From the UHGV virus genome UHGV-0097752: a DNA stretch of 19,920 nt; one strand, 5' to 3'. The stretch is from a virus. A program made the translations under genes and the position numbers. The notes below the pieces were generated by a model. The model worked only from the letters and a program-made list of their open reading frames with translations, had not been told where the DNA came from and made no database searches. Positions within the stretch are counted from its first letter, which is position 1. Every line of letters starts with the position of its first letter. This document shows positions 1 through 9,556 of this stretch, one piece after another.

Positions 1-372
1 CAGTTGTTTTGATTTCCGGTAGCCTGCCGCGTAAATGGCTACGTTTGGAAGACATACACCAGTTTCTGGTTGCTTATGTCCAAACTCATTCGCGTACACA
101 ATGGCCGCTCTCTCCAGATTGCGTCTGTATTCTTTCTGTTGCCAGATCACGTCCTGTGCCATGAACTTAATTGGCTTAGCGTCTTCTATGCGCTCAGGCG
201 TTTCGTGAGTACCTTTAGCCTGAATCTGCGCTCTGCTTAGAGTAGGGCGGTGTAATACTTCTGAACTTATTGCTTCTTCGCGGGCCAGTACGCCGTTAGC
301 TAATGCCTTTGCCTTTAAACGCTCACGACGACGAGAACGTGAATTGCCTTTGAACTGAGTTCTGCGTGTCAT
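1..372 (-). CDS. N: N-type transcription antiterminator, 5' part (ORF runs off window start)
   Basis: Minus-strand ORF starting at ATG (complement of 370-372) with AGGAGG about 5 nt upstream. N-terminal arginine-rich motif (NSRSRRRERLKAKA) and a ...VAIYAAGYRKSKQ... segment resembling P22 gene 24/N-family proteins as recalled. Sits downstream of pL and a boxB-like hairpin. At least 124 codons are visible, longer than lambda N, so C-terminus and true length are unknown. Confidence 0.6.
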   Translation of the reverse strand, partial: MTRRTQFKGNSRSRRRERLKAKALANGVLAREEAISSEVLHRPTLSRAQIQAKGTHETPERIEDAKPIKFMAQDVIWQQKEYRRNLERAAIVYANEFGHKQPETGVCLPNVAIYAAGYRKSKQL

Positions 373-684: not shown

Positions 685-768
685 TCTGTATGTTTTTTAT
701 ATGAATTTATTTTTTGCAGGGGTGCATTGTTTGGTAGGTGAGAGATCTGAACTGCTATGTTTAGTGAG

Positions 769-798
769 TTGTATCTATTTATTTTCAAATAGATACAA
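769..798. repeat. Perfect 12-bp inverted repeat with 6-nt spacer (TTGTATCTATTT-ATTTTC-AAATAGATACAA)
   Basis: Read directly: the right arm is the exact reverse complement of the left arm. AT-rich, non-coding, between the pL operators and the leftward terminator. No T-tract follows on either strand. Confidence 0.9.
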
Positions 799-835
799 TT
801 GGTTATGTGTTCTTGGGTGAGGGGGATCGTGAGGC

Positions 836-861
836 AAAGAAAACCCGGCTCTGTGGCCGGG
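836..861 (-). terminator. Intrinsic terminator for the leftward cI/KilA-N transcript
   Basis: Minus strand CCCGGCCACAGAGCCGGG (6-bp GC stem, 6-nt loop) followed by TTTTCTTT, about 80 nt downstream of the KilA-N gene stop. Confidence 0.5.
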
Positions 862-942
862 AATAACATTTAGGAATCAAGGTCAGGTAGCATGATTTTC
901 TCAATCAACGTCAATGCCCTTTGGTCTCGTTCAGCAAAATAT

Positions 943-1629
943 TTAGGAGCGTACTGAGGCAGCCACACTTCGTTGAAGTATTGTTTGAAATCTGCAATAT
1001 TCGTTTGGGTATAGACGTACCGGGAATGTCCGGCCATCTGGGTACTCATGGTTATATGTTGGGAATGTCTTCGGCTCAACCCCCCGGTTGTCACGGAGCC
1101 ATTGCGAGAAAACCCTACCCTCTGAAATATCAGGGACCATTTTTTCTGGCAGCGTATATCCGGCCTGTTCAAGTGGCGCAACCAAGTTAAACGTCAGTTC
1201 ATTAAGCATAGAAAAGTGCGTATGAGGAACTCTGCCTCGGTTTGTCATATACCGCTTAAGGTGGATAGGGAGTTCGGCAGGCGCTCTTTCACCTGACATC
1301 CACTCACGCACCCATCTCGATACTTGCACTGCAAATTTTGGAGATAGCCACTGAGCTAAATTAATTGCGATGTCTGGATGAACCCAAGTCCCTTGATTCT
1401 CTGCTCTTCCGCCTTTAAATGATTGAATTAACTCCGATATGGGAATCCCCATATCGCGTGATAATTCATCAAAAAAATCTTGTGTTGTTTTTAGTCGTGT
1501 ATAGTCAGCAAGTAGCTTCCCCGCAGACTTGCACATCGCGGTGGCATTGATGTATCCGTCTTTGGTGCGAAGATGGATGACTTCTCCATCAACTTCTCTA
1601 GCGATTAATGCAAGTTGAAATTGTGTCAT
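943..1629 (-). CDS. KilA-N domain protein with unassigned C-terminal half (occupies the rexAB-equivalent slot)
   Basis: 228-aa minus-strand ORF. The N-terminal half carries the KilA-N/APSES-like signature (DGYINATAMCKSAGK ... GTWVHPDIAINLAQWLSPKFAVQVSRWV). Start ATG (complement of 1627-1629) lies 31 nt downstream of the cI stop with an AGGA RBS, same orientation as cI. C-terminal ~110 aa not recognised. Confidence 0.75.
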   Translation of the reverse strand: MTQFQLALIAREVDGEVIHLRTKDGYINATAMCKSAGKLLADYTRLKTTQDFFDELSRDMGIPISELIQSFKGGRAENQGTWVHPDIAINLAQWLSPKFAVQVSRWVREWMSGERAPAELPIHLKRYMTNRGRVPHTHFSMLNELTFNLVAPLEQAGYTLPEKMVPDISEGRVFSQWLRDNRGVEPKTFPTYNHEYPDGRTFPVRLYPNEYCRFQTILQRSVAASVRS

Positions 1630-1660
1630 AAATCATCCTATTACGTGAAAAATAAAACAA

Positions 1661-2377
<717 letters not shown>

Positions 2378-2812: not shown

Positions 2813-3109
2813 ATGACACAAGCAAGTTATAGCAAGCCAACACAGCGAGAAATTGATCGCGCTGAAACTGATTTACTCATCAACCTGTCAACGCTTACCC
2901 AGCGCGGTCTGGCAAAGATGATTGGCTGTCATGAATCGAAGATAAGCAGAACGGACTGGAGATTTATTGCTTCGGTCTTGTGTGCTTTCGGAATGGCATC
3001 AGACATCAGTCCGATTAGTAGGGCTTTTAAGTATGCGCTTGATGAAATCACAAAGAAAAAATCCCCGGCCGCCACCGAGGATTTTAAGCAAATTGATATG
3101 CAATTCTGA
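2813..3109 (+). CDS. cII: CII-family transcriptional activator
   Basis: 98-aa ORF; C-terminal ...[18 protein letters not shown] resembles the lambda CII tail (...KKRPAATERSEQIQMEF); HTH-like centre; position after cro/nutR. Confidence 0.8.
2822..2835 (-). promoter_or_regulatory. Candidate CII-binding direct repeat (TTGC-N6-TTGC) of a pRE-like promoter
   Basis: Minus strand reads TTGCTATAACTTGC inside the 5' end of cII, the arrangement of lambda pRE. No promoter -10 was verified. Confidence 0.4.
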
Positions 3110-3288: not shown

Positions 3289-4141
3289 TATTGCAACCGT
3301 AACACATTTAAGGCCTTCACAACGGCCTGTGGAGCGTCGTGTGGCAGAAGTTGAAGATGGTTATACCCGTCTTGCAAATGCCCTGTATGAAGAGCTTATC
3401 GGCGCAGATTTAACGAAAAATCAGAGCAAGGTTGCCCACGCCATATGCCGTAAAACATACGGCTACGGTAAAAAGATGGATCGCATCTCTGATAGTCAGT
3501 TAGCTCAAATTACCAGGCTGCCAAGACAGAAGGTAAACAAGGCCAAGAATGAGCTTATCGCGATGAAGGTTATCCTTCGCGAAGGCCAGCAAATCGGGCC
3601 TAACAAGAACATCGAGGAATGGCAAATCGAAGGGTGTCACTACTCTGGTGATAATGTCACTGCATTGGTGACAAAAAGTGTCACCAAAACGGTGACAGCG
3701 CTGTCACCAAAACAGGGACACACAAAAGAAACTATTACAAAAGAAAAAAGAAATAATAAAAACACTATGTCCGAAAGTGTTCGGACGGAGTGTGAAAAAT
3801 CACCTGACCGTCACGAAGAAACCGACAAGGCATTCGAGGAAATATTCTGGTGTGCAGGCATGCGGAAAGCCGGGAAGAAAAACGCAGCTTCGGCATTCAG
3901 AACACAGTTCAGGGAATGGCGTAAAACTACCAGGGGTACGGCAAGCGAGTTTGCCACGATGCTGGCAGAAGACATCGCATGCAGGAATGGTAAGCAGTTC
4001 GGATTCGACAGGTTGTTACCATCGAGCTACCTGAACGGTCAGCGCTGGAACGACGAGAAGCCAGAAACCATTCAACCACAATCCAAACCATCATCCGCAA
4101 TCACCGTATCGAAAACTGGCTACGTGTTTTTCGACAGGTGA
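3281..4141 (+). CDS. O: Replication initiator, lambda O family
   Basis: 286 aa; N-terminal region resembles lambda O ([14 protein letters not shown] ... [41 protein letters not shown] ... GPNKNIEEW); contains an iteron/AT-rich block mid-gene as in lambda. Confidence 0.85.
3647..3765. repeat. Putative origin: GTGACA/TGTCAC-based iterons followed by an AT-rich tract, inside the O gene
   Basis: Repeated GGTGACA...TGTCACC units (3647-3715), then AAAGAAACTATTACAAAAGAAAAAAGAAATAATAAAAACA. Matches the ori-lambda layout of iterons plus an AT-rich unwinding region. Confidence 0.6.
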
Positions 4142-6917: not shown

Positions 6918-7338
6918 ACTAAGAAGCCCCATCCATCAGCAGAACGCCATTCAAGCTATCCAGCAAATCCTTCCAGACCCAACCAAACCAATCGTAGTGA
7001 CCATCCAGGAACGCAACCGCAGCTTAGACCAAAATCGGAAGCTTTGGGCTTGCCTTGGTGACGTCTCTCGTCAGGTTGAATGGCATGGTCGCTGGCTGGA
7101 TGCAGAAAGCTGGAAGTGTGTGTTTACCGCAGCATTAAAGCAGCAGGACGTTGTTCCTAACCTTGCCGGGAATGGCTTTGTGGTAATAGGCCAGTCAACC
7201 AGCAGGATGCGTGTAAGCGAATTTGCGGAGTTATTAGAGCTTATACAGGCATTCGGTACAGAGCGTGGCGTTAAGTGGTCAGACGAAGCTCGACTGGCTC
7301 TGGAGTGGAAAGCGAGATGGGGAGACAGGGCTGCATGA
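6895..7338 (+). CDS. ninB: NinB (Orf-family recombination mediator)
   Basis: 147 aa, near-identical to lambda NinB as recalled (QQILPDPTKPIVVTIQERNRSLDQNRKLWACLGDVSRQVEWHGRWLDAESWKCVF...). Confidence 0.9.
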   Translation: MVRKLTFELRSPIHQQNAIQAIQQILPDPTKPIVVTIQERNRSLDQNRKLWACLGDVSRQVEWHGRWLDAESWKCVFTAALKQQDVVPNLAGNGFVVIGQSTSRMRVSEFAELLELIQAFGTERGVKWSDEARLALEWKARWGDRAA

Positions 7339-8207
7339 TAAATGTCGTTAGTTTCTCCGGTGGCAGGACGTCAGCATATTTGCTCTGGCTAATGGAGCAA
7401 AAGCGACGGGCAGGTAAAGACGTGCATTACGTTTTCATGGATACAGGTTGTGAACATCCAATGACATATCGGTTTGTCAGGGAAGTTGTGAAGTTCTGGG
7501 ATATACCGCTCACCGTATTGCAGGTTGATATCAACCCGGAGCTTGGACAGCCAAATGGTTATACGGTATGGGAACCAAAGGATATTCAGACGCGAATGCC
7601 TGTTCTGAAGCCATTTATCGATATGGTAAAGAAATATGGCACTCCATACGTCGGCGGCGCGTTCTGCACTGACAGATTAAAACTCGTTCCCTTCACCAAA
7701 TACTGTGATGACCATTTCGGGCGAGGGAATTACACCACGTGGATTGGCATCAGAGCTGATGAACCGAAGCGGCTAAAGCCAAAGCCTGGAATCAGATATC
7801 TTGCTGAACTGTCAGACTTTGAGAAGGAAGATATCCTCGCATGGTGGAAGCAACAACCATTCGATTTGCAAATACCGGAACATCTCGGTAACTGCATATT
7901 CTGCATTAAAAAATCAACGCAAAAAATCGGACTTGCCTGCAAAGATGAGGAGGGATTGCAGCGTGTTTTTAATGAGGTCATCACGGGATCCCATGTGCGT
8001 GACGGACATCGGGAAACGCCAAAGGAGATTATGTACCGAGGAAGAATGTCGCTGGACGGTATCGCGAAAATGTATTCAGAAAATGATTATCAAGCCCTGT
8101 ATCAGGACATGGTACGAGCTAAAAGATTCGATACCGGCTCTTGTTCTGAGTCATGCGAAATATTTGGAGGGCAGCTTGATTTCGACTTCGGGAGGGAAGC
8201 TGCATGA
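7335..8207 (+). CDS. ninC: NinC (PAPS-reductase-like)
   Basis: Start at ATG 7335 (ATGA overlap with the ninB stop), [22 protein letters not shown]... The 310-aa track ORF has an upstream in-frame extension I do not consider translated. Confidence 0.9.
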
Positions 8208-8885: not shown

Positions 8886-9054
8886 CCCATCCCAATCCCT
8901 TCAATACCAGAAAGAAAGCGTCGAGCGAGCTTTAACGTGCGCTAACTGCGGTCAGAAGCTGCATGTGCTGGAAGTTCACGTGTGTGAGCACTGCTGCGCA
9001 GAACTGATGAGCGATCCGAATAGCTCAATGTACGAGGAAGAAGACGATGAGTGA
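8878..9054 (+). CDS. ninF: NinF
   Basis: 58-aa [61 protein letters not shown], lambda NinF-like as recalled. Confidence 0.75.
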   Translation: MLSPSQSLQYQKESVERALTCANCGQKLHVLEVHVCEHCCAELMSDPNSSMYEEEDDE

Positions 9055-9556
9055 TGTTAAAGAAAAAGATATCCCCGGCTTTGAGGGTATATATAAAGTA
9101 ACTGAAAATGGAGACATCATTTCATGCCGTAAATCAAAAAAATTATCTCATGGCATTAAACTAGGAGGATATGCATTTGTCGGTCTGTATCCAGGTGGCG
9201 GGAAAAGACCATCATATAAAATGGTTCACAGAATTGTTGCAGAAGTATTTATTGATAACCCAGATGGCAAACCGGAAGTTAATCACAAGGATGGAAATAA
9301 ACTTAATAATAAAGTTGAAAATCTTGAGTGGGTAACGCGAACAGAAAATGCGAAACATGGATTTGATTCCGGATTGCTTGTTCATGGGTTTAATCATCAC
9401 TTCTGCAAACTAACGCCAGAACAAGTGAAATCAATATATAAATCAAAAGGCAAATACAGAGATATAGCCAAAGAATTTGGTGTTTGTGCGCAGACAGTGT
9501 GCAACATAAAAAACAAATCAGCGTACCGACGTTTTTTGGAGGGGATTGATGTTTAG
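9047..9556 (+). CDS. HNH homing-endonuclease-like protein (NUMOD4-like N-terminus, HNH_3 core, C-terminal HTH)
   Basis: 169 aa; GFEGIYKVTENGDIIS (NUMOD4-like), HRIVAEVFIDNPDGKPEVNHKDGNKLNNKVENLEWVTRTENAKHG (HNH_3-like), C-terminal KSKGKYRDIAKEFGVCAQTVCNI (HTH-like). Visibly more AT-rich than the flanking nin genes. Confidence 0.8.
   Translation: MSDVKEKDIPGFEGIYKVTENGDIISCRKSKKLSHGIKLGGYAFVGLYPGGGKRPSYKMVHRIVAEVFIDNPDGKPEVNHKDGNKLNNKVENLEWVTRTENAKHGFDSGLLVHGFNHHFCKLTPEQVKSIYKSKGKYRDIAKEFGVCAQTVCNIKNKSAYRRFLEGIDV

What the first reader, a model, noticed from the sequence alone, without database searches (positions are those of the whole stretch)
943..1629. KilA-N-domain gene co-transcribed with cI in the rexAB-equivalent slot
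Immediately downstream of a lambda-type cI (31-nt gap, own RBS, same strand) sits a 228-aa protein with an N-terminal KilA-N/APSES-like DNA-binding domain and a ~110-aa C-terminal half I cannot assign. It is followed by its own hairpin/T-tract terminator at 836-861. In lambda this position holds rexA-rexB, and in lambdoid phages generally the cI-to-pL interval is a known slot for lysogen-expressed exclusion or defense cargo. A single-gene KilA-N fusion expressed from pRM in the lysogen is a candidate uncharacterised exclusion, abortive-infection or regulatory function.
Basis: partly seen in the sequence, partly recalled or inferred. Interest (0 to 1): 0.7.

Follow-up and report, generated by a model that had tools for sequence, protein, structure and literature searches.

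The report
Frameshifted BstA defence gene after cI
The gene after the lambda-type repressor belongs to the known BstA family of prophage abortive-infection defence genes, here as a frameshifted and probably disabled copy, and its family carries a previously unreported palindrome inside the coding sequence, kept by paired mutations.

Summary
The ORF (943-1629, minus strand), the 31-nt gap to a lambda-type cI, the ribosome-binding site, the KilA-N domain and the terminator are all real. Two points change the reading.

First, the C-terminal half can be assigned. It is Pfam BstA_C. The whole protein matches the PHROG "BstA abortive infection system" (E 1e-66) and aligns with the tested BstA of Salmonella phage BTP1 (hhalign probability 97.9%). 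It therefore belongs to a published prophage defence family that typically sits just downstream of the repressor.

Second, the 228-aa ORF is a frameshift allele of a 253-aa gene. A 2-bp deletion near 997/998 replaces the last 42 conserved residues, which form two helices and include four invariant aromatic residues, with 17 unrelated ones. The allele is real but rare: 16 contigs read (9 by the cluster table) against 924 for the intact allele. It is probably defective.

Side observation: a 20-24-bp palindrome (window 1435-1456) lies inside the KilA-N coding region. It is maintained across phyla by compensatory substitutions, including synonymous sites (45 of 45 complementary). It is absent from BTP1-type bstA genes. 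It may be a cis-acting DNA site, possibly an aba-like self-immunity site or an operator. Its function is untested.

The parts
943..1629 (-). bstA-like ORF as it reads in the window: 228 aa. Residues 1-211 are native (KilA-N 13-112, then BstA_C). Residues 212-228 are out of frame.
   Evidence: PF04383 KilA-N + PF26567 BstA_C.
996..999 (-). Site of the 2-bp (TC) deletion relative to the intact 253-aa allele. The aligned gap falls between 997 and 998.
   Evidence: Alignment with L001 (E. coli D5) and L003 (phage PhiR5_2). The same deletion is present in E. coli strains 81, EC2641 and 1008S19.
870..996 (-). Displaced remnant of the native reading frame. It encodes ...ADFKQYFNEVWLPQYAPKYFAERDQRALTLIEKIMLPDLDS, with the native stop at 870-872.
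   Evidence: tail of ORF 870..1181; intact protein.
1435..1456 (.). Intragenic palindrome CGATATGGGGATTCCCATATCG, covering codons 58-65 (RDMGIPIS) in the helix-turn-helix region of KilA-N. The arms are 9 bp perfect around a 4-nt centre.
   Evidence: single copy in the window. (compensatory changes across the family). (ssDNA hairpin about -10 kcal/mol, z about -4.7).
1630..1660 (-). 31-nt cI-bstA spacer with AGGA at 1636-1639. It belongs to a roughly 45-bp upstream block that travels with the gene between different repressor contexts.
834..861 (-). Intrinsic terminator of the cI-bstA unit: stem 861..844 (CCCGGC-CACAGA-GCCGGG) followed by a T-tract.
   Evidence: The 800-861 stretch is 97% identical to the annotated immunity-region terminator of phages HK542 and HK244.
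1661..2374 (-). Lambda-type cI repressor (237 aa), the upstream gene of the presumed operon.

Best explanation
The gene is a BstA-family prophage defence gene sitting in the lambda rexAB slot. Its architecture is a canonical KilA-N DNA-binding domain followed by a BstA_C domain.

By analogy with the tested BstA proteins, the intact 253-aa protein would work as follows:
- It would be made in the lysogen, here most simply by read-through from cI (pRM/pRE) to the terminator at 844-861.
- It would go to the replicating DNA of an infecting phage.
- It would block that replication and abort the infection.
- The carrier prophage would be spared by a cognate cis-acting DNA element inside the bstA locus.

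In this window the gene carries a 2-bp deletion. The deletion removes the last 42 native residues, which form the two terminal helices of BstA_C, so this copy is most likely a defective allele.

What is shown: family membership, position, the frameshift, and which residues are lost.
What is inferred: expression with cI, the defence activity of this untested subfamily, and loss of function in this allele.
For: Family membership:
- phrog_6287 'BstA abortive infection system': E 1.3e-66 for the window ORF (profile positions 6-253 of 304). For the intact allele, E 4.2e-82 over positions 8-301 of 304.
- PADLOC BstA: E 8e-13 for the window ORF and 2.5e-20 for the intact allele.
- Precomputed Pfam KilA-N + BstA_C on the window protein itself.
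- BLASTP to BstA-BTP1: 29% identity over residues 132-250, E 4e-15.
- hhalign of the family profile against BstA-BTP1: probability 97.9%, 186 aligned columns.

Position:
- The gene lies directly after the prophage repressor, as in BTP1. The same arrangement is seen in E. coli D5, phage PhiR5_2 and Proteus phage V3.

Frameshift:
- Shown by alignment.
- The lost segment contains four invariant residues (F220, W224, Y232, F233) and five nearly invariant ones among 60 homologs.
- It forms helices 210-236 and 238-248 of a confident model with pLDDT 89.
- It aligns with a conserved stretch of BstA-BTP1.

Frequency and decay:
- The exact allele was read on 16 contigs (9 by the cluster table), against 924 for the intact allele.
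- It occurs in 3 of 22 close alleles in complete E. coli genomes.
- In strain EC2641 the same lineage has also acquired a nonsense codon at position 113. This fits decay.
Against: - No experiment has tested this 250-aa subfamily. The three tested BstA proteins are about 298-307 aa with a divergent KilA-N-like N-terminus.
- The PADLOC BstA model matches only the C-terminal half, with a modest score.
- The frameshift allele occurs in several independent metagenomes and with different pL-side neighbours (L011-L014). It has therefore persisted and spread, which a fully dead gene need not do.
- The KilA-N domain and two thirds of BstA_C remain intact and could retain some activity.
- Expression in the lysogen is inferred only.
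Confidence: 0.75

Rival explanations
1. The truncated 228-aa protein is still a working defence or exclusion protein. On this view the last two helices of BstA_C are dispensable, or the new 17-residue tail is tolerated.
For: - The allele is found in 16 contigs from independent samples, with different neighbouring pL-side genes, and in 3 complete genomes.
- KilA-N and BstA_C up to residue 211 are untouched.
- The precomputed Pfam BstA_C hit is still scored on the truncated protein.
Against: - The lost 42 residues include four invariant aromatic residues and two confidently modelled helices.
- That segment is conserved as far as BstA-BTP1.
- A sister copy has gained an extra stop codon.
- The intact allele is roughly 60-100 times more frequent.
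Confidence: 0.15
2. The protein is not a defence protein. It is instead a KilA-N transcription regulator or antirepressor-type protein of the prophage, and the BstA label is over-propagated annotation.
For: - The N-terminal domain also matches phrog_129 'transcriptional regulator' (E 7e-24).
- Many KilA-N proteins in phages are annotated as regulators or antirepressors.
- This subfamily itself is untested.
- Many members sit outside prophages, next to housekeeping genes.
Against: - The match to the BstA PHROG covers the full length and is far stronger than the match to phrog_129.
- The C-terminal domain is specifically BstA_C and is homologous to the tested BTP1 protein.
- Owen et al. also report prophage-independent BstA homologs, 21% of their set.
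- Some members lie in defence-island-like contexts, next to DUF1156/DUF499 or an R-M methylase.
Confidence: 0.08
3. The frameshift is a sequencing or assembly error, and the real gene in this organism is intact.
For: The window is a metagenome contig with about 9x coverage (record name).
Against: The identical 228-aa product is called on 16 contigs from independent ENA and Logan samples. The same 2-bp deletion is present in three complete E. coli genomes.
Confidence: 0.02

Closest known systems
BstA of Salmonella prophage BTP1 and its tested homologs BstA-Ec and BstA-Kp (Owen et al. 2021, Cell Host Microbe, PMC8585504)
   Same: - Two-domain protein: KilA-N-type N-terminus plus BstA_C.
- Encoded directly downstream of the prophage cI-type repressor, with its own Rho-independent terminator.
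- Same PHROG and the same Pfam C-domain.
- C-domain homology at 29% identity; hhalign probability 97.9%.
   Different: - The intact form is 253 aa, against 298-307 aa.
- The N-domain is a canonical Pfam KilA-N (E 7e-27). BTP1's N-domain is not detected by Pfam at all.
- No BTP1-type aba sequence is present: there is no CCCGCC in the locus.
- It carries an intragenic palindrome that 48 BTP1-type genes lack.
- This subfamily is untested experimentally.
- The window copy is frameshifted.
Lambda rexA-rexB
   Same: - Same slot between cI and oL/pL in a phage with lambda-type immunity.
- Presumably transcribed with cI in the lysogen.
- Abortive-infection or exclusion role.
   Different: - No sequence or structural relationship.
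- One gene instead of two.
- RexAB acts through membrane depolarisation (established knowledge). BstA blocks phage DNA replication (abstract).
The aba (anti-BstA) element of BTP1
   Same: Like the palindrome found here, it is a short DNA element lying inside the bstA locus. It differs between homologs, so it can be cognate.
   Different: - aba-BTP1 is a 63-bp element at the 5' end of the gene with terminal CCCGCC direct repeats. It is not a palindrome.
- The element here lies at codons 58-65 and is a 20-24-bp inverted repeat.
- No functional link to self-immunity has been shown for it.
KilA-N/APSES DNA-binding domains (P1 KilA N-terminus, yeast Mbp1, Bqt4)

Membership tests
BstA prophage defence family (Owen et al. 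2021) | [quoted passage not shown] | tested here: met
   - Pfam KilA-N, E 6.6e-27.
- Precomputed PF26567 BstA_C on the window protein.
- phrog_6287, E 1.3e-66.
- hhalign to BstA-BTP1, probability 97.9%.
BstA prophage defence family (Owen et al. 2021) | Complete, in-frame C-terminal domain | tested here: not met
   The 2-bp deletion removes native residues 212-253, including invariant F220, W224, Y232 and F233 (numbering of P0002) and two terminal helices. The intact allele in other genomes meets this feature.
BstA prophage defence family (Owen et al. 2021) | Location directly downstream of a prophage repressor, with its own Rho-independent terminator | tested here: met
   31 nt after a lambda-type cI. 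Terminator stem 861..844. BTP1 has the same layout.
BstA prophage defence family (Owen et al. 2021) | Cognate anti-BstA (aba) DNA element within the locus | tested here: inconclusive
   There is no similarity to the 63-bp aba of BTP1 and no CCCGCC repeats in 800-1700. However, aba elements are homolog-specific and have been mapped only for BTP1. A conserved intragenic palindrome exists, but its function is unknown.
BstA prophage defence family (Owen et al. 2021) | Abortive infection: blocks replication of infecting phage DNA and protects at the population level | not testable with these tools
   This needs phage challenge of cells expressing the intact and the truncated alleles.
BstA prophage defence family (Owen et al. 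2021) | Expression during lysogeny | not testable with these tools
   No terminator lies between cI and the ORF on the minus strand, and the consensus scan found no separate sigma-70-like promoter. Expression is therefore inferred only.
PADLOC BstA model (PDLC02356) | Full-length match to the model | tested here: inconclusive
   Only the C-terminal half matches: residues 120-198 at 46 bits for the window ORF, and 119-236 at 71 bits for the intact allele. BstA-BTP1 scores 412 bits over its full length.
KilA-N / APSES DNA-binding fold | Sequence and fold match of the N-terminal domain | tested here: met

The most novel reading that the evidence does not exclude
The 20-24-bp palindrome inside the KilA-N coding sequence (window 1435-1456) may be a cis-acting double-stranded DNA site read by the protein it encodes. 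It would then act as the cognate self-recognition element of this BstA subfamily, either aba-like self-immunity or an intragenic operator. The variable arms also code for the helix-turn-helix turn (D/E/S-X1-G-I-P-X2-S/D). A change of site would therefore be coupled to a change in the protein, which gives a built-in way to generate new cognate pairs.

The evidence shows a nucleic-acid-level constraint. It does not show who reads the site or what the site does.
Probability: 0.25. Interest if true: 0.8.

Novelty: new member of a known kind. Interest (0 to 1): 0.5.

Why it matters
For the finding as posed, the result closes the question. The mystery gene in the lambda rexAB slot is a BstA-type abortive-infection gene. 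This copy is probably broken, so it is not a lead to a new defence system. It does show two things:
- Lambda-immunity prophages of E. coli swap rexAB for bstA-like cargo.
- That cargo is often disrupted. A stop at codon 113 is seen on at least 1000 contigs, and several frameshift alleles exist.

The palindrome matters more. The molecular basis of BstA self-immunity is unknown, and aba has been mapped in only one phage. Here a large, untested BstA subfamily has a single-copy, homolog-specific DNA element in the gene, with clear evolutionary support. That gives a concrete, cheap hypothesis to test. One test supplies the palindrome in trans on a high-copy plasmid. Another mutates one arm and compares it with mutating both. 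The palindrome is also an unusually clean case of nucleic-acid constraint dictating amino-acid covariation in a DNA-binding domain.

Tried and rejected
- **Sequencing error as the cause of the frameshift.** Rejected. The same allele is on 16 contigs and in 3 complete genomes.
- **A BTP1-like aba.** No CCCGCC in the locus and no similarity.
- **Extra copies of the palindrome or its half-sites.** None in the window. No full site was found within about 3 kb in 47 loci, only scattered half-site matches at up to one mismatch.
- **A known RNA family.** No Rfam match in 600-2500 at E up to 1.
- **mRNA hairpin versus DNA site.** Sense-strand wobble mismatches (G.T/T.G, 13) are no commoner than antisense-type ones (A.C/C.A, 14). 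There is thus no support for an mRNA-specific structure, but the test is weak.
- **Does the palindrome track mobile, replicating elements?** That would be expected of a self-immunity site. The result is inconclusive.
  - Palindrome-bearing genes lie in phages or integrase islands: E. coli, Proteus, Rhizobium, Lysobacter.
  - They also lie next to RecQ, a histidine kinase and a radical-SAM gene.
  - Palindrome-less genes lie in chromosomal contexts, including a syntenic Stenotrophomonas locus.
- **Is a repressor directly upstream a family-wide rule?** An S24-type repressor was found upstream only in Enterobacterales loci and one other.
- **Is the lower 5'-end identity between alleles a sign of a variable aba?** It is not distinguishable from the ordinary amino-acid divergence there.
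- **A mis-specified query.** One search did not span the deletion and is ignored.
- **Literature.** No paper in the held library links KilA-N or BstA to a palindrome. No later mechanistic study of BstA was found.

Full report
**Observation**

The window carries a lambda-type immunity region:
- cI at 1661-2374 on the minus strand (HTH_3 + Peptidase_S24).
- cro at 2475-2675 and cII at 2813-3109 on the plus strand.
- An N gene running off the left end (<1-372, minus strand).

Operator-like sequences lie at about 623-684 and 2384-2448. I recognise them as lambda oL and oR from memory of the lambda sequence.

The ORF in the finding lies between cI and oL, at 943-1629 on the minus strand, 228 aa. 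Its features:
- A 31-nt gap to cI.
- AGGA 6 nt before the ATG.
- No terminator-like site between the two genes.
- A clean hairpin plus T-tract just downstream, with stem 861..844.
- A strong KilA-N match at residues 13-112, E 6.6e-27.

**What the gene is**

The C-terminal half can be assigned:
- PHROGs places the whole protein in phrog_6287, "BstA abortive infection system, replication inhibitor" (E 1.3e-66).
- PADLOC's BstA model matches residues 120-198 (E 8e-13).
- The gene catalogue that holds this very contig lists Pfam KilA-N plus PF26567 BstA_C for it. The local Pfam copy lacks that newer model.
- BLASTP of the intact allele against the tested BstA of Salmonella phage BTP1 gives 29% identity over residues 132-250, E 4e-15.
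- A profile of 60 family members aligns with BstA-BTP1 over 186 columns, probability 97.9%.

BstA was described by Owen et al. (2021, PMC8585504):
- It is a prophage protein, often encoded just downstream of the repressor, as bstA is in BTP1.
- It localises to replicating DNA of infecting phages.
- It aborts the infection.
- The carrier prophage escapes through aba, a short DNA element inside the bstA locus that is specific to each homolog.

BTP1 has the same gene order as this window: cI, then bstA, then a terminator, then N.

**The frameshift**

The PHROG match stopped at profile position 253 of 304. An overlapping ORF in another frame (870-1181) ended in protein-like sequence.

Nineteen of 22 close alleles in complete E. 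coli genomes, and phage PhiR5_2, carry a 762-nt gene of 253 aa at this place. Aligned with them, the window lacks two bases (TC) between 997 and 998. The consequences:
- The native sequence ends at Tyr211.
- 17 unrelated residues follow.
- 42 native residues are lost.

The lost stretch contains four invariant residues (F220, W224, Y232, F233 in the numbering of P0002) and five nearly invariant ones among 60 homologs. It forms the last two helices of the model. It aligns with a conserved part of BstA-BTP1.

The allele is real:
- The exact 228-aa product is called on 16 contigs from independent samples. One of them is this window, ENA ERZ1303633 NODE_1524.
- The deletion is present in three complete genomes.

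The allele is also rare. The cluster table counts 9 contigs for it against 924 for the intact protein. In strain EC2641 the same lineage has gained a stop at codon 113 as well. I therefore read this copy as a probably defective allele. Function was not tested.

**Context elsewhere**

The same gene module moves between repressor contexts. The module consists of about 45 bp upstream, the gene and the terminator. It is found:
- Behind lambda-type cI (window, D5, PhiR5_2).
- Behind a different LexA-family repressor (DY612).
- Behind an XRE-type repressor (H6).
- Behind cI in Proteus phage V3.
- In an 86%-identical variant, away from any repressor (phage 673R7, STEC383).

Relics of the lambda cI 3' end sit upstream of the gene in H6 and DY612.

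The family is very large and strongly conserved. It has 2654 hits, with 52-86% identity across Proteobacteria, Verrucomicrobiota, Planctomycetota, Nitrospirota, Dehalococcoidia and others. Many members lie outside recognisable prophages. Owen et al. reported the same for 21% of BstA homologs.

Their three tested proteins are about 298-307 aa. Most of their 72 homologs span 810-924 nt. The 253-aa subfamily with canonical KilA-N has therefore not been tested directly.

**A conserved palindrome inside the gene**

I compared the lambda-type allele with the 673R7 allele, which is 77% identical at the nucleotide level. Codons 49-72 stood out at 92-97% identity with few synonymous changes. That block contains CGATATGGGGATTCCCATATCG at window 1435-1456.

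In the protein alignment, the residue before Gly61 and the residue after Pro63 co-vary exactly as a DNA palindrome predicts. The pairs are M/I (22 sequences), T/V (18), V/T (3) and I/I (2). The combinations M/V and T/I never occur.

I then fetched DNA for 80 family loci and extracted codon-aligned segments. The palindrome is rebuilt in many versions, for example:
- GATATGGGAATTCCCATATC
- GAAACGGGAATTCCCGTTTC
- GGTCTATGGGAATTCCCATAGACC
- CCGATGCCGGAATTCCGGCATCGG
- CCGATGTCGGAATTCCGACATCGG
- CCGTTATGGGAATTCCCATAACGG

Evidence that this is a nucleic-acid constraint:
- The third position of the codon before Gly is complementary to the third position of the Pro codon in 45 of 45 distinct palindrome-bearing sequences (G-C 33, C-G 12). 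Both states are spread over many protein clusters.
- On all 77 distinct sequences, 67.9% of cells pair, against 54.8% in shuffles and 26-42% when the partner is slid. The covariation score is 0.302 against 0.149, with 0 of 500 shuffles reaching it.
- On the 46 sequences of the clusters that carry it, 91.1% pair, against 73.9% shuffled and 30-49% slid. Covariation is 0.412 against 0.131. Extra pair types number 22 against 15.1, with 0 of 500 shuffles reaching it. The choice of clusters for this second count used the palindrome score, so the first count is the unbiased one.

Distribution of the element:
- It is single-copy in each locus.
- It is missing from one coherent clade with the motif QTGLPEQQLIH, which includes a syntenic Stenotrophomonas locus.
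- It is missing from 48 distinct BTP1-type bstA genes, which show background complementarity of 2-3 of 12 at the equivalent site.
- It is present in part in some KilA-N genes that lack BstA_C: Bacteroides LoVEphage, Synechococcus phage S-SRP02 and Planktothrix phage PaV-LD.

Wobble-type mismatches show no sense-strand bias, and no Rfam family matches. I conclude that a nucleic-acid element is maintained here and is more likely read as DNA.

Its function is open. Candidates are:
- A site for the KilA-N domain itself.
- An aba-like self-immunity element, or an intragenic operator.
- A palindrome kept up largely by template-switch mutation rather than by selection.

A test of association with mobile elements was inconclusive. 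I found no mention of such an element in the BstA paper or in papers on KilA-N.

**Verdict**

For the gene itself the novelty is that of a new member of a known kind. The intragenic palindrome is the part worth following up.

Noticed in passing
window 1435-1456; family loci L019-L098: A 20-24-bp palindrome lies inside the KilA-N coding region (codons 58-65). It is conserved across phyla by compensatory substitutions, including synonymous sites (45 of 45 complementary). It is single-copy per locus. It is absent from one clade and from BTP1-type bstA genes, and partly present in some KilA-N genes without BstA_C.
   Followed up: yes
L007 2539-3300 (E. coli H6); L002 3489-3830 (EC2641); cluster member P0135: A stop at codon 113, exactly at the KilA-N/BstA_C boundary, splits the gene into a 113-aa KilA-N ORF and a separately annotated C-terminal ORF starting at Met127. 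The 113-aa product is on at least 1000 contigs in several Enterobacteriaceae, more than the intact allele (924). The same codon is hit in two backgrounds whose neighbouring synonymous sites differ (GGT TAA and GGC TAA). It is unresolved whether this is a functional two-polypeptide form or recurrent decay.
   Followed up: partly
proteins P0026, P0035, P0148: Further independent frameshift alleles of the same E. coli gene exist: 239 aa (P0026), 144 aa (P0035) and a second 239-aa product (P0148). This bstA-like gene is disrupted repeatedly in enterobacterial prophages.
   Followed up: partly
L007 about 3301-3368 and L008 about 3300-3345 (upstream of the gene): Degenerate relics of the lambda cI 3' end (CAGTGGCCAGATGATACGTTTGGGTGA and similar) sit upstream of the gene in prophages with unrelated repressors. 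The left boundary of the mobile bstA module therefore lies inside the end of cI.
   Followed up: partly
window 768-799: A 12-bp inverted repeat with a 6-nt loop (TTGTATCTATTT-ATTTTC-AAATAGATACAA) lies between the bstA terminator and oL. It is conserved in the D5 and PhiR5_2 loci. No T-tract follows it on either strand.
   Followed up: no
L035, L036, L043, L044, L051, L053, L056, L057, L062: In Stenotrophomonas species the palindrome-less form of the gene sits in a conserved chromosomal neighbourhood. Its two large flanking ORFs (929 aa and 511 aa) gave no Pfam match. This suggests vertical inheritance rather than prophage carriage.
   Followed up: partly
window 7335-8207 (+) and 9047-9556 (+): The nin region of this prophage carries a PAPS-reductase-family gene and an HNH_3/NUMOD4 (homing-endonuclease-like) gene. 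This is according to the precomputed Pfam list for the same contig (L010).
   Followed up: no
L102/L103 1-5052; L095 4841-6493: Some distant family members lie next to defence-type genes: DUF1156 + PDDEXK_3 + DUF499 in Verrucomicrobiota, and an Eco57I/N6-methylase in a Sphingomonas. This fits a defence-island setting outside prophages.
   Followed up: no
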